Assembly (NCBI GenBank): GCA_964016885.1
Contig: OZ024743.1
Location: 30,132,001-30,196,000 of the forward strand
Source: Eledone cirrhosa
Lineage: Eukaryota
DNA: 64,000 nucleotides
Reading direction: 5' to 3'
A model generated the notes under the pieces. That model was given only the letters and a program-made list of their open reading frames with translations. It was not told where the DNA came from and searched no databases. Shown here piece after piece: positions 40 through 31,003 of this stretch. Numbering within the stretch: the first letter of the stretch is position 1; every line of letters starts with the position of its first letter. The position numbers and the translations under genes are program-made.

Positions 40-858
40 ATTTTCGTATTAATTTTTTCATATTTATCGTACGAGCATTTATGTAGTTTGCATTAGAATT
101 TATGTATTGTAGCGGTACTCTTATATATCGTATTAGCATTCATTTTCGTGACTCTGAATTATTATTTCGTGTTAGTTTTTTTTTTTTTTTAGCATTTTGG
201 CCCCCTACTTGTCCTGTCATTGTAAGATAGATTTGGCCGATTACTACTAACTCATAAAATTCTTTCACTACAATCTCGTATTTAGTATTCCGTCCCACCT
301 ATTAAACTTTTCTATAGTTGAGAGATTTGATAATTGTGGTAGTGGAATCGTAACCAGAAATTGTGTTTTTTCATACTTTTAACATTCTTATTTTTCTATA
401 TATTTACTCCATATAGATTTACTTATTGTTTCGACTTCTACCCCCTCCCCCTCTCTAGTATACTTCTCTTGACCTCTTATCCTTAGGATTTGGCTGTAGT
501 TGTCACTTTCAACGAACGACTGGGTTTCCTCCACTCCCTCTCCCTCATTCTTCTACTGGCAAGTTCAGCTAACCCTTCCTTCCACAAAATGCCATGATAG
601 AATTATGTGTCTCAACAACAAACTTTTGACCAATCCTTGTGAAAATCACTTTTACCATATATGGAATTACTCCCTGAGAAGCTCGGCTATTCATTTACCA
701 GGATAAAAATATTTCATTTAGTCCAGAATTAGCCGTCGAAACGGCTTGAGCTCAGCCGTCGGCGTCCTACTCGTTCCTATTACCCACTCTACTACCCTAA
801 GTATTGATTACTTGGGTGCTTATGGTCCATCTGGTTCCTTACCACATTTCCTTCGTTA
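40..858 (+). mobile_element. 3' UTR/pLTR end of a PLE (same family as 26492-28648), probably continuing upstream of the window
   Basis: 500-858 aligns by eye with ~28300-28648 (cactttcaacg...gccatgatag...gtccagaattagccgtcgaaacggcttgagctc...ggtccatctggttccttaccaca); ends at (TA)n. Confidence 0.75.
669..765 (+). ncRNA. Variant hammerhead ribozyme motif (CUGAGAA core, long stem II, long stem III with palindromic loop)
   Basis: actcc CTGAGAA gctcggcta...tagccgtc GAA Acggct tgagctc agccgT C ggcgt; C3-A8 mismatch, imperfect stem I. Confidence 0.55.
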
Positions 859-1738
859 TATATATATATATATATATATATATATATATATACGCTCATA
901 TATACAGATACATACATACATATACACATATACACATTATTTCTTTACATGTGCCTTTTAATCTTATAGCCTGGTTTAATTCGTTTCTGGCGGGGATCAT
1001 TTAAGAAAAATCTTTGTCCAAGTAAGTTTGTTTCCTGATGAGTTCGAAACTCGAGAATTTATCCTTGATTGGATATTTCCGAAAGCCATACCCTAAGGGT
1101 AAAAACGTAATCCTGGTATGTGCATATGCATTTTTTCTTCTAACTTTAATTCTATACCTAATTGTGTATGGTTGCCGATATATTTAATCGATTTCCACGT
1201 GCTATTGAAATGATGGGTAAATATTATATGGCTTTTGGTCGCGAATAAATGGGTATCGTTTATTTATCTATTATTTCTTCACAGGTGGCTTTTAATCTTA
1301 TAGCCTGGTTTAATTGTTGTTTTGTGTGGTTGATTATGTTGATTGGGAGAGGAATTGAGTATATATCTTATCAAATGATTCTAAGAACATAATTTATAGT
1401 ATATTGAGCCACATCGTGAATGGTTACCAAAAACATATCTATAACTTTATCTAGTTTGTGTATGTGTAAATCTTTATATATATATATATATGTATATATA
1501 TATATATATATATATATATATATATATATATATATATATATATATATATATATATATATATGTATATTTATATATATATACATATATATGTATATATATA
1601 TATACATATATATATATATATATACATACATATATATGTATATATGCATATATATATATATATGTATATATATATATACATATATATATATTATAAAAAT
1701 AGACAAAGAAGCCTTCAATACATCAAAAGTCTTTATTA

Positions 1739-1779
1739 GTCTACAATGTTTCGTCCCATTAATAAGGACTCATCAGGGC
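1739..1779 (-). ncRNA. Minimal type-I HHR in the inverted 5' pLTR piece of PLE-1
   Basis: Reverse complement gcc CTGATGA gtcc ttattaatg ggac GAAAC att GTA gac (stem I carries G>A). Confidence 0.75.
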
Positions 1780-2748
1780 AATTAAACAGACAAGAAGCAT
1801 TAACGGCCAGAACAAGCCAAAACTCAGAAGAATAGGGAATTCATATCAATGAAAGCTTATGAGAGATATGAAGGAAAAGCATGCTAAAGCTAAAAGTGTG
1901 CAGTTACAAATATGGACTATAGGGCAAGAAAGTGCTTTTATATTTTTATATTATTATATTATTTATTATTATAATATTAACATTTATATATCATATTATT
2001 TCTATGTAATGGAATTATACGTATAAATATGTCTGATATTTAAGGTACTGTTTTGTTATATCTCGTAATATTTTGTAATTATTTTATGAATGTAAACTGC
2101 ATATACCCCTATATACTTATTATCAATACTTTATGTATTTATGTATTTATGTATATATATATCTTTCAACATACTCCAGTTTTATTATGATATTTTTTCT
2201 TGCCCTGTGTAAAACTTTATATTCAACTTGTTGACATTAAGTGATATGTATGATGTAGTTTTGTATATTTTTGATGTCAGTATATTATTATATTATTTCT
2301 TGTATAGCTTATTTTTGTATAGTTTATTTTTTGTATAGTTTATGCGCACCGTCAGGGTGAGTTTTATATTATAAAGTTTATATTATAAAGAGTATATTTA
2401 TACTTATTAAGTGTTAGTATGTGTTTGTGTAAATGTGTATATATATGGATATATATATATGTATATACATACATTAAGCTTTATATTTCTTATTACCCAT
2501 TATATCGTATTGTAATTCTGATATTATATTACCATGTTGTATTTAATGTATTTGTATTATACTGTAATTTCAACGTTGGTTTGACATTTCACTCACTTTC
2601 TTGCCCTATAGTCCATATTTGTAACTGCACACTTTTAGCTTTAGCATGCTTTTCCTTCATATCTCTCATAAGCTTTCATGGATATGAATTCCCTATTCTA
2701 CTGAGTGTTGGCTTGTTCTGGCCGTTAATGCTTCTTGTCTGTTTAATT

Positions 2749-2789
2749 GCCCTGATGAGTCCTTATTAATGGGACGAAACATTGTAGGC
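2749..2789 (+). ncRNA. Minimal type-I HHR in the 5' pLTR of PLE-1
   Basis: gcc CTGATGA gtcc ttattaatg ggac GAAAC att GTA ggc, then AATAAA at 2791. Confidence 0.85.
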
Positions 2790-28648: not shown

Positions 28649-28919
28649 TACATATATATATATATATATATATATATATATATATATAAATGGAAAAGAT
28701 GAAACGAAATTTCATTTCTCTCTCTTAGTGCAGCTGTTACTTAAAGAGTTTATTATAATAAATATTCGGTAAATCCATACGTACATATATATATGTGTGC
28801 ATGTATCTATATACATACATACTACTATAACGTCTGTATACATATATGTATGTACGTATACATATTTATATATATATATATATATATATATATATATATA
28901 TATATATATATATATATAT

Positions 28920-30517
28920 ATAAAATATTAAAAAAATAATGAATAAAACAATGAAACAGTTCCTTATATTAAACAAAACAAGTTCATTATTTAACGATCG
29001 TTTCTGGGATATATATGTGTTAGAATTGGCATGTATATTTAACAGATCTATGTACAAAATTATACAAAATTATACAAACTATCAAAATTAAATATACATA
29101 CCAACTCATATATATGCCGTCTTCAGAAATAATGAAATATATTTATTGATAATAACAACAATTCAAAATTACAGGTCTGTTTGGGAACAGAGTTCAAATT
29201 GACCAATGGAAACACAAAAAGTTTATACAGTTAGGTGTGTGTATATATGTAAGTAACTTCGTTCACAGATATGCATAAAAATATATGTTCACATGCATAC
29301 GCATGCCGAAAAGATGTATGTAAATACAAAAATTCAGGGCTAATGTCTCTGTATGTTTATAATCTACAGATAAAATACATATACGCATATAAACATATAA
29401 ATATAAAAATAAATATATACACATTCATATACTCACACATATACATACATTCACACACACACGCGCATATACGCATAAACATACACACAACCACGAACAT
29501 ACATACACACACACACTCACACACACATATATGTGTATATACTATTATCATAAGCATATGGACATTAATGCGCGCACATAAACATTGCCACACATATTTA
29601 GATCCAGATACAGAAAGTAGGTGGGGGGGGGGAAGAGGTCAGTATTTACTGGTGTCAGCAAACTGCCTATTTATAAATGTATCTATAAATTTAGAAATAA
29701 AAAGAAAAAGAAAAAAGAAAAATATTAAGAATATATATATATATATATATATATATATATATATATAAACAAGTAAAATATAAAATATACATCGATATAC
29801 ATACATATATATATATATATATATATATATATATATATATATATATATATATATATATATATATATACATACATATACATACACATATACATAAACACAT
29901 ACATACACATACATATACATACACACACCATATATATACACATACACATACACACACGCGCATACATATAGAGACACATACATATACACATATAAATACA
30001 TAGACATATACATATATACACACATATATATATATATATATATACACACATACATATATACATACATTCAAACAGACCTGTAATATATATATATATACAC
30101 ATACATATATACATACATCCAAACAGACCTGTAATTTTGAATTGTTGTTATTATCAATAAATATATTTCATTATTTCTGAAGACGGCATATATATGAGTT
30201 GGTATGTATATTTAATTTTGATAGTTTGTATAATTTTGTATAATTTTGTACATAGATCTGTTATATATACATGCCAATTCTAACACATATATATCCCAGA
30301 AACGATCGTTAAATAATGAACTTTTTTTGTTTAATATAAGGAACTGTTTCATTGTTTTATTCATTATTTTTTTAATATTTTATCTTGACTCTGTATTCCG
30401 TTTATCTTACACCGAAAGTGATTTTTCATTGCATCTCTTCTTTCCATGATATCCGGATTACATTGAGTTCTTCATACGGATTGGACACTACCGTAAACTC
30501 TTGGTAGATTTATCTAC
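28920..30517 (+). mobile_element. Non-coding PLE-type element with ~264-bp inverted arms, microsatellite-rich interior and 3' tail
   Basis: 28920-29184 = revcomp of 30119-30383; tail to ~30517; flanked by (TA)n. Confidence 0.82.
30167..30320 (+). ncRNA. HHR with greatly extended stem II (inverted copy at 28983-29136)
   Basis: ttcattattt CTGAAGA [115 nt: cggcatatatatg-agttggtatgtata...tatacatgccaatt-catatatatccca] GAAAC gatc GTT aaataatgaa; 10-bp stem I. Confidence 0.75.
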
Positions 30518-30967
30518 ATATATATATATATATATATATATATATATATATATATATATATATATATATATATATATATATATATATACAACTATATTAC
30601 AGAAAGAGAAGTGTGTTACACAGTGAGATGTGTGTAAATAATTAATACAAGTGAGTTTTACCGTTACTGCATAGAGAACAATATCTACAGGATTAGCAAT
30701 TAAATAGGAAAAAAACTAAGTCAGAATCAAATCTCTGAATTAGAGTTTTAAATTACCAACCTTATAACTATAAGTTTGCTGATACGAATCTTGTTCGTTC
30801 ATATATATATATATATATATATATATATATTAGAAAGTGAAAAATATATTACAAAATGAAAAATAACCGAGGTGTCCTACACGAGTGAAAGTATAAAGAA
30901 ACAAAGATGAAATCGAAAATGCAACTGGAGTCTTATTAAAAAAAATATATATATATTTATTTGGTTC

Positions 30968-31003
30968 CTTTACCGGTTTCGCAGTTCTTCTGCTTTTCAA
31001 AAG
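30968..31003 (-). ncRNA. Variant minimal HHR (UUGAAAA/GAAA) in a solo pLTR fragment (~30830-31036)
   Basis: Revcomp ctt TTGAAAA gcag aagaa ctgc GAAAC cg GTA aag, with AATAAA a few nt downstream. Confidence 0.75.

What the first reader, a model, noticed from the sequence alone, without database searches (positions are those of the whole stretch)
669..31003. Hammerhead hotspot: over 20 HHR motifs of about nine families in ~30 kb
Seen: motifs starting at 669, 1739, 2749, 7346, 8085, 8187, 10051, 10517, 10983, 11448, 11749, 13809, 16086, 20842, 24247, 24461, 24603, 25228, 28457, 28983, 30167 and 30968, on both strands. Many have a tiny palindromic stem III (ACTAGT, ACCGGT, ACGATCGT, ATATATAT). 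Known: minimal PLE HHRs are proposed to act as dimers through such palindromes. Inference: coding PLEs, foldback minis and a retrozyme share machinery and a (TA)n target; read-through transcripts would be cut and would form long dsRNA, a possible small-RNA source.
Basis: partly seen in the sequence, partly recalled or inferred. Interest (0 to 1): 0.7.

Follow-up and report, generated by a model that had tools for sequence, protein, structure and literature searches.

The report
Penelope pile-up in a hammerhead-rich genome
This 30-kb stretch is a stack of about 13 jumping-gene insertions carrying predicted self-cutting RNA motifs, about four times the average of a genome that likely holds 200,000-300,000 of them, and one young family has spread to 10,000 copies with a core change predicted to cripple cutting.

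Summary
All 22 listed motifs are real type I hammerhead (HHR) homologues of nine families. Twelve pass a structural descriptor, three narrowly miss and seven carry lesions or variant cores. They come from 12 insertions: four ORF-bearing Penelope-like elements (PLEs), truncated PLE copies and one 466-bp retrozyme, all in (TA)n.

"Hotspot" is only partly right. Thirty-three random 30-kb blocks average 2.8 motifs (maximum 8; window 12), which extrapolates to about 2.8e5 genome-wide. Three exact patterns alone give 143,804. A 14-kb array elsewhere holds 32.

The foldbacks are likely two-primer insertions: in family C, 23 of 23 pairs have one long and one short end. Read-through RNA is predicted to bury the HHR in duplex rather than cut. 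Expression is untested.

The new point is family C: its core is U3-A8 plus A13C in 10,160 copies against 118 others, and it includes a copy with an open 784-codon frame. That makes it a natural test of whether PLEs need HHR cleavage. The scan had already noted the genome-wide load and the two-ended insertions elsewhere in this genome; the term A13C was in no note.

The parts
478..856 (+). 3' remnant of PLE family A (F12); HHR 669-765 with C3.A8 core mismatch, predicted inactive; ends in (TA)n
   Evidence: other copies of the family have UUGAGAA
1696..7538 (+). Hydra-like PLE (family B/F09): inverted arm 1696-1934 (HHR 1739-1779, minus), upstream partial repeat (HHR 2749-2789), broken ORF 2989-5579, 3' repeat (HHR 7346-7386); short left end, long right end
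7964..8384 (.). Family C foldback without ORF; HHRs 8085-8122 (minus) and 8187-8222 (plus), U3-A8 + A13C; short left end, long right end
9640..11716 (+). 466-bp retrozyme-type tandem (4.2 units, 99% alike) with four intact HHRs (10051, 10517, 10983, 11448; predicted cut after 10088, 10554, 11020, 11485) and a short rearranged inverted arm 9640-9766
11743..12211 (-). Truncated relative of family D (74% identity); HHR 11749-11795
13227..13500 (.).
13726..24313 (-). Hydra-like PLE (family D/F08): 3' HHR 13809-13859, ORF 24300-22015 with one stop, inverted arm 24217-24313 (HHR 24247-24297, plus); family C element nested in its TA-rich 3' region (nesting inferred from matching ends)
   Evidence: arms 96 of 97 identical; long-end 15-mer at 13725 and 24203
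15925..21006 (+). Neptune-like PLE (family C): inverted arm 15925-16378 (HHR 16086-16123, minus), ORF pieces 16270-19880 with RT and GIY-YIG, 3' HHR 20842-20880; U3-A8 + A13C core
24336..24733 (.). F00 foldback; intact HHRs 24459-24523 (minus) and 24601-24665 (plus)
24733..25068 (+). 3' piece of a further repeat family; damaged U3-A8 HHR at about 24811-24852 (relatives have an ACGTACGT stem III and a very short stem I)
25183..25922 (-). F04 copy; HHR 25228-25283 with ATATATAT stem III; inner end approximate
26492..28646 (+). Hydra-like PLE remnant (family A relative): 40-bp inverted arm holding the HHR 3' half, decayed ORF about 26620-27790, HHR 28457-28554 (U3-A8, extra base)
28923..30517 (.). 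F42 foldback; HHRs 28983-29136 (minus) and 30167-30320 (plus), stem II insert of about 115 nt, ACGATCGT stem III; short left end, long right end
30950..31035 (-). F07 fragment; HHR 30968-31003, U3-A8 with intact GAAA (sister of family C); limits approximate

Best explanation
The stretch is a stack of about 13 insertions of Penelope-like retrotransposons and one retrozyme in (TA)n tracts, each carrying a predicted hammerhead in its 3' repeat, and it is likely the upper tail of a genome-wide load rather than a dedicated locus.

Shown: the motifs, the ORFs, the (TA)n ends, the two fixed 3' ends per family and the genome counts.

Inferred step 1: the PLE endonuclease nicks both strands of (TA)n.
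Inferred step 2: two reverse transcriptases start at two sites 40-140 nt apart just downstream of the HHR on one template, one on each strand.
Inferred step 3: the two cDNAs stop independently and join head to head through short palindromic microhomology. This gives one long-ended and one short-ended arm and doubles the HHR count.
Inferred step 4: each insertion leaves TA on both sides and some carry TA inside, so later elements land in or beside earlier ones.

The template passes through the HHR uncut or re-ligated; linear versus circular is undecided. In family C the ribozyme is likely weakened (A13C, A-U-only stem I), yet the family amplified.
For: Density: 93 descriptor hits in 33 of 33 seeded-random 30-kb blocks (mean 2.8, range 0-8, 2 reversed-sequence decoys) against 12 in the window. 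Homology-inclusive: mean 4.5, maximum 11, against 20; insertion events mean 3.1, maximum 10, against 11. Negative-binomial tails are 0.004, 0.002 and 0.009. Exact patterns give 80,274 + 39,230 + 24,300 matches (controls 146, 1, 0). C1:5,738,326-5,752,444 holds 32 matches in 14 kb.

PLE identity: RT and GIY-YIG; DKG and CX2-5CxxC in family C; RWR, DKT/YRDD and CxCX5C in family D (PMC8557442 section 11). Ten HHR families lie within 2.5 kb downstream of a PLE ORF.

Two-primer signature: 21 of 21 fetched family C pairs, chosen by spacing and not by ends, plus 2 of 2 in the window have one long and one short end. The longer arm carries the short end in L194, L200 and the window copy. F04 5 of 5, F05 3 of 3, F03 6 of 8. 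Opposite-strand pairs: 58 head-to-head against 7 the other way. Arms share rare variants: 8 pairs among the 100 listed non-C13 copies, two of them 2.7-3.2 kb apart. In vitro a PLE protein cuts and extends both strands and starts at two internal sites (PMC11167929).

No pile-up of arm ends at the cut: 2 of 235; F03 at most 90 against 16,844 read-through copies.
Against: The window exceeds all 33 random blocks and the 200 kb of flanks run at about 1.8 times background, so some regional cause is not excluded. Blocks with as many TA islands (18-22) reach at most 10 events. The TA-event correlation (rho 0.78) is partly circular. Shared variants between arms also fit gene conversion or snap-back copying. 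One F03 pair is short/short, F01 ends did not separate by my TA-run measure, and several F00/F02/F12 pairs were ambiguous. 9 of 27 family C pairs in the first 100 matches share one 116-bp spacing, which two free-running primers do not predict by themselves. F03 arms ending at the cut (90) outnumber a control offset (7), though most read as slippage or TA joins. No cleavage was measured.
Confidence: 0.75

Rival explanations
1. The region is a maintained small-RNA or dsRNA source (a transposon trap) whose read-through transcript is cut by the HHRs.
For: Local enrichment is real (about 4-fold; flanks 1.8-fold). About 81% of bases 1-31100 lie in these insertions by my intervals. Foldbacks are predicted to form long duplexes. 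Penelope copies yield small RNAs in a rotifer (PMC3846280 passage).
Against: The same families and foldbacks are everywhere in the genome. Folded foldbacks bury the HHR. Orientations are mixed. No A>G over T>C excess in retrozyme (12/148 vs 9/152), family C ORF (13/1027 vs 14/545) or family C repeat (6/83 vs 8/61) copies (small sample).
Confidence: 0.1
2. Foldbacks arise by self-priming: one cDNA or an antisense template folds back at a palindrome and is copied onto itself (the reading given in PMC3846280).
For: Junctions are palindromic (family C modal centre GCTCTGATCAGAGC). Arms share rare variants. Two loci keep the unpaired original base at the centre (L182, L183).
Against: A copied arm cannot be longer than, or carry a tail absent from, the first arm. 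Yet the longer arm is short-ended in L194, L200 and 15925-21006 and long-ended in L192, L193, L196, L198.
Confidence: 0.15
3. The short foldbacks are non-autonomous mini elements that amplify as palindromic units.
For: Recurrent 116-bp spacing in 9 of 27 family C pairs, with near-identical junctions in L176 and L181-L188.
Against: Arm lengths run continuously from under 100 bp to over 4 kb. Junctions vary by a few bases. Every mini keeps the same long/short pair of ends as ORF-bearing copies.
Confidence: 0.08
4. Family C's U3-A8/C13 core is an active, co-adapted hammerhead variant that still cuts, perhaps as a dimer or with the PLE protein.
For: The rest of the core, stem II and the ACCGGT palindrome are kept in 10,160 exact copies of two subfamilies. 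U3-A8 is a known active covariation (PMC3088659 section 8; PMC4209133). A13 changes are quoted as only 10-100-fold inhibitory (PMC4075628 passage). A PLE HHR needed protein to cut (PMC11167929).
Against: The sister family keeps U3-A8 with A13, so C13 is not needed to offset A8. Stem I is only 3-4 A-U pairs. Identity among young copies reflects the source element, not selection on each copy.
Confidence: 0.3

Closest known systems
PLE-associated minimal/variant type I HHRs (Cervera and de la Pena 2014, PMC4209133; parts 1-2 of 4 read)
   Same: HHR in the flanking repeats; many families per genome; small palindromic stem III; opposite-strand pairs 100-700 bp apart; U3-A8 covariation.
   Different: Numbers there are thousands per genome; here 143,804 exact matches from three patterns. 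Pair 10.1-11.1 is G-C in only 17 of 93 hits and is often U.U or C.A. A13C is not mentioned in the parts read.
EN+ PLE insertion anatomy; Hydra and Neptune clades (Craig et al. 2021, PMC8557442, passages and section 11; Arkhipova et al. 2013, PMC3846280, passages)
   Same: Partial tandems, inverted 5'-truncated copy, tail often at one end only, (TA)n targets, palindromic junctions, clade motifs.
   Different: The tail is 40 nt in family C but 60-140 nt in other families here. The one-long-one-short rule is strict in family C (23 of 23). The B element spans 4.6 kb per unit, longer than the under-3-kb Hydra elements described.
Anolis Poseidon PLE in vitro (Frangieh et al. 2024, PMC11167929; parts 1-2 of 4 read)
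   Same: Both strands nicked in AT-rich DNA; two internal RT start sites bounding the tail; HHR mutants do not block insertion in vitro; no RNA ends found at the cut.
   Different: They saw no difference in start site between strands; the genomic pairs here imply the two sites are used one per strand in a single event. Family C would be a natural counterpart of their HHR mutants.
Metazoan non-LTR retrozymes (Cervera and de la Pena 2020, PMC7229834, passages; Li et al. 2026 preprint 10.64898/2026.07.22.740005, parts 1-2 of 5)
   Same: Non-coding tandem unit with one type I HHR, AT-rich, from a few to dozens of units; proposed to be moved by PLEs.
   Different: 466 bp is slightly above the 150-450 bp range in the first paper but inside 51-972 bp in the second. 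Arrays here are head-to-head with two fixed ends. Axolotl has 126,247 HHRs in 28 Gb; this 3.0-Gb genome passes that on three patterns.

Membership tests
Type I hammerhead ribozyme | Core C3UGANGA9...G12AAA with U16.1-H17 and three stems in type I order | tested here: met
   12 of 22 pass the descriptor, 0 decoys in the window; 3 more have intact boxes
Type I hammerhead ribozyme | Conserved A13 (family C, four motifs) | tested here: not met
   C13 in 10,160 copies against 118 with A, G or T
Type I hammerhead ribozyme | Self-cleavage after H17 | not testable with these tools
   No biochemical or raw RNA data; arm ends do not pile up at the cut
EN+ Penelope-like element | RT followed by C-terminal GIY-YIG endonuclease | tested here: met
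   Pfam RVT_1 and GIY-YIG in 18042-19877. B, D and A frames have no Pfam hit but show YRDD-type and IVY..YIG-type motifs
EN+ Penelope-like element | Pseudo-LTR with HHR, partial tandem or inverted 5' copy, tail at one end | tested here: met
Hydra clade PLE (families B, D, A) | RWK-like motif, DKT, CxCX5C linker, no CCHH cysteines, (TA)n target | tested here: met
   D: RWR, YRDD, CxCX5C, no cysteine pair between IVY and YIG, but DKT reads DKT in one piece by motif scan only; B: RWR and DKT, linker lacks the first C; A: CxCX5C. No tree was built
Neptune clade PLE (family C) | GxKF, DKG, CX2-5CxxC linker, CCHH in a C-terminal EN | tested here: met
   Motifs present; named relatives are bivalve proteins at 44-46%
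Neptune clade PLE (family C) | Placement in the Neptune clade by RT phylogeny | not tested
   No labelled reference set in hand; Nematis not excluded
Non-LTR retrozyme (466-bp unit) | Non-coding tandem repeat with a type I HHR in each unit | tested here: met
   4.2 units, four HHRs, no ORF of 110 codons or more; arrays elsewhere
Non-LTR retrozyme (466-bp unit) | Expressed as linear and circular monomer RNA | not testable with these tools
   Only assembled contigs of unrecorded library type were available

The most novel reading that the evidence does not exclude
A young Penelope-like family has reached 10,000 copies with a catalytically crippled hammerhead (U3-A8 plus A13C, A-U-only stem I) beside a sister family with an intact core, while making the same one-long-one-short two-primer insertions and tandems. 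This is a natural knockout showing that PLE spread in vivo needs the two RT start sites but not ribozyme cleavage, inside a genome carrying more hammerheads than the largest count in the papers read.
Probability: 0.4. Interest if true: 0.65.

Novelty: new variant of a known kind. Interest (0 to 1): 0.42.

Why it matters
What the hammerhead does for Penelope-like elements is an open question: PMC8557442 calls it unclear, and PMC11167929 found it dispensable in vitro. This genome offers a matched pair of high-copy sister families, one with an intact core and one with a fixed A13C change, so the question can be tested with two short RNAs and one copy census. The strict pairing of long and short ends turns the known 'tail at one end' into a countable constraint on the insertion mechanism. 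The local cluster itself matters little: it is a dense spot in a genome full of such copies.

Tried and rejected
Rfam scan: dominated by microRNA models hitting (TA)n; only the retrozyme HHRs appear among the 150 of 235 rows shown.

Expression: no RNA holder listed for window 9950-10450. Laying four contig sets of unrecorded type showed the retrozyme and family C in one small set and single retrozyme contigs that wrap by 466 in two other studies. A tandem array gives the same wrap, so I draw nothing from it. A 9-base deletion beside the family C cut in one set matches a short-repeat length variant and is not read as cleavage.

Cleavage footprint in DNA: no pile-up at the cut (2 of 235 arms, family F10 left out because its reference caught another repeat). 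The F03 test (90 at the cut, 7 at an offset, 16,844 read-through) is confounded by TA slippage.

A-to-I scars: none in my sample.

Scrambled-order hammerhead at 24811: rejected; relatives fold as type I with a short stem I.

CTGAGGA at 49408: weak stems, not counted.

'Record density' is not claimed: descriptors differ between studies, and I recall, from no call, that Schistosoma has a high density per megabase.

Literature: searches and passages showed no natural A13C PLE hammerhead. Searches and one search showed no HHR census in cephalopods; the host taxon was not tested by me. No supplements were opened, and those of PMC4209133, PMC3088659 and PMC8557442 could list such variants.
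Full report
Setting. The window is G000:C4:30,132,001-30,196,000 of a 3.0-Gb animal genome, rich in (TA)n. I did not test the host taxon; named relatives of one element's protein are from bivalve molluscs.

Observation. A structural descriptor for type I HHRs finds 12 motifs in 669-31003 and none in the reversed window. All 22 listed positions are HHR homologues: 12 pass, 3 have intact core boxes but a weak or mismatched start of stem II, and 7 have lesions or variant cores. 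They fall into nine families and 12 insertions. A thirteenth insertion, a foldback cut inside its core, lies at 13227-13500, and a damaged tenth-family motif at about 24811. Stem III is a perfect even palindrome in 64 of 86 family hits from random blocks; such 6-8-mers form no hairpin alone but pair between two copies, as the dimer model in PMC4209133 expects.

What carries them. Four insertions hold PLE ORFs. Family C (16270-19880) has RT and GIY-YIG with Neptune-type motifs. Families B, D and A have Hydra-type motifs by the list in PMC8557442 section 11; no tree was built. Element D runs 13726-24313: its arms are 96 of 97 identical and a long-end 15-mer recurs at 24203, so element C is inferred to sit inside it. 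The 466-bp tandem is non-coding and matches the retrozyme description (PMC7229834 passages). By my intervals about 81% of bases 1-31100 belong to these insertions.

Is it a hotspot? I drew 33 seeded-random 30-kb blocks from 25 contigs covering 2.71 of 3.0 Gb (C27, C28 and small contigs were not in the draw). They hold 93 descriptor hits, mean 2.8, range 0-8, with 2 decoys; the window has 12. Counting damaged homologues gives mean 4.5, maximum 11, against 20; collapsed to insertions, mean 3.1, maximum 10, against 11. With seeds from outside the window only, the figures are 18 motifs and 10 events against maxima of 10 and 9. These homology counts omit the four A13C motifs. Negative-binomial tails are 0.002-0.009, and the window edges were chosen after the fact. 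So the stretch is about fourfold enriched, near the top 1%, which still means hundreds of comparable tiles. The 200 kb of flanks hold 34 hits.

Genome-wide load. Extrapolation gives 2.8e5 motifs (bootstrap 2.1-3.6e5), or about 1.8e5 if pair 10.1-11.1 must be canonical or G.U (59 of 93). Seven of the 93 were dropped as likely false or doubtful before the palindrome count. Three exact patterns give 80,274, 39,230 and 24,300 matches (controls 146, 1, 0); they check core boxes and stem III, not stem I. That exceeds the 126,247 reported for axolotl (PMC7229834 passage). A relative of the window's retrozyme forms a 14-kb array with 32 matches, denser than this window.

How the foldbacks form. Each family has two preferred 3' ends. 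In family C, 21 of 21 two-armed loci and both window copies have one end 124 nt and one 164 nt past the predicted cut, or a length variant of these; independent 50:50 choice gives about 1e-7. F04 (5 of 5), F05 (3 of 3) and F03 (6 of 8) agree; F01 did not resolve and several F00, F02 and F12 pairs were ambiguous. The retrozyme has ends 231 and 300 nt past the cut and head-to-head arrays. Either arm can be the longer one, which a single snap-back cannot give. Arms share rare variants, even 2.7-3.5 kb apart, pointing to one template or source, though gene conversion is not excluded. With the in vitro result that a PLE protein extends both nicked strands from two internal starts (PMC11167929), the best reading is two coupled primers whose cDNAs join at palindromic microhomology. 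The anatomy itself is described (PMC8557442, PMC3846280); the strict pairing is the addition. Against it: 9 of 27 listed family C pairs share one junction about 45 nt upstream of the core, which needs a transcription start or a stall site there.

Is the RNA cut? Arm ends do not collect at the cut (2 of 235), and F03 copies ending there are at most 0.5% of read-through copies. Element B copies through an upstream HHR. This fits an uncut linear template or a ligated circle equally. For host read-through RNA, folding puts nearly every HHR base of four foldbacks into duplex with the other arm, so cutting and long dsRNA are predicted to compete. I found no A-to-G scar in the copies sampled.

Family C's core. 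It reads U3-A8 with C at position 13. Exact counts are 5,415 against 8 for the window's 36-mer, and 10,160 against 118 across two subfamilies. The sister family keeps A13. Copies are mostly 95-100% alike in the repeat, and L196 has an open 784-codon frame, so the family is young. U3-A8 is a known active covariation (PMC3088659 section 8); A13 changes are quoted as 10-100-fold inhibitory (PMC4075628 passage). Stem I is only 3-4 A-U pairs. I read the ribozyme as likely weakened or dead; this is untested.

Earlier notes. After forming this reading I looked up the scan's notes. Others had reported the genome-wide load and two-ended insertions elsewhere in this genome. The term A13C met no note, and the family C repeat matched none.

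Verdict. Real motifs, a known association and a modest local excess. The interest lies in the genome-wide load, the end-pairing rule and the A13C family, not in the locus.

Noticed in passing
window 39399-39594: Family A foldback joined inside HHR stem II; long left end and short right end in (TA)n.
   Followed up: partly
   Followed up: yes
random blocks L066-L164: Pair 10.1-11.1 is a family-fixed mismatch in several abundant families (U.U in F01, F08, F10, F13, F14; C.A in F02 and half of F05); G-C in only 17 of 93 hits.
   Followed up: partly
random blocks and flanks; window 24811, 28457, 30968: U3-A8 cores occur in at least four families (F07/C, F11, F12 and the 24733 family).
   Followed up: partly
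G000:C1:5738326-5752444: 31 tandem units of a 466-bp retrozyme relative plus one inverted unit.
   Followed up: no
window 9640-9766: The retrozyme's inverted arm is rearranged: 44 bp from the long end, then a jump to 86 bp upstream of the HHR, suggesting a template switch.
   Followed up: partly
window 50811-54429 (minus), 57732-60691 (plus), 61135-63144 (minus): Three non-LTR retrotransposon remnants with RT domains; the first has an AP endonuclease and C2H2 fingers, the last a zf-RVT.
   Followed up: no
window 8445-9560: 1.1-kb repeat with a 78% copy about 27 kb before the window start; no HHR; unidentified.
   Followed up: no
window 26186-26460: GC-richer 275-bp segment between TA tracts with no homologue in the sampled loci.
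   Followed up: partly
window 31112-31776 and 37355-37599: Other inverted repeats without HHR: a 134-bp pair ending in (TA)n, and an (AAG)n/(CTT)n foldback.
   Followed up: no
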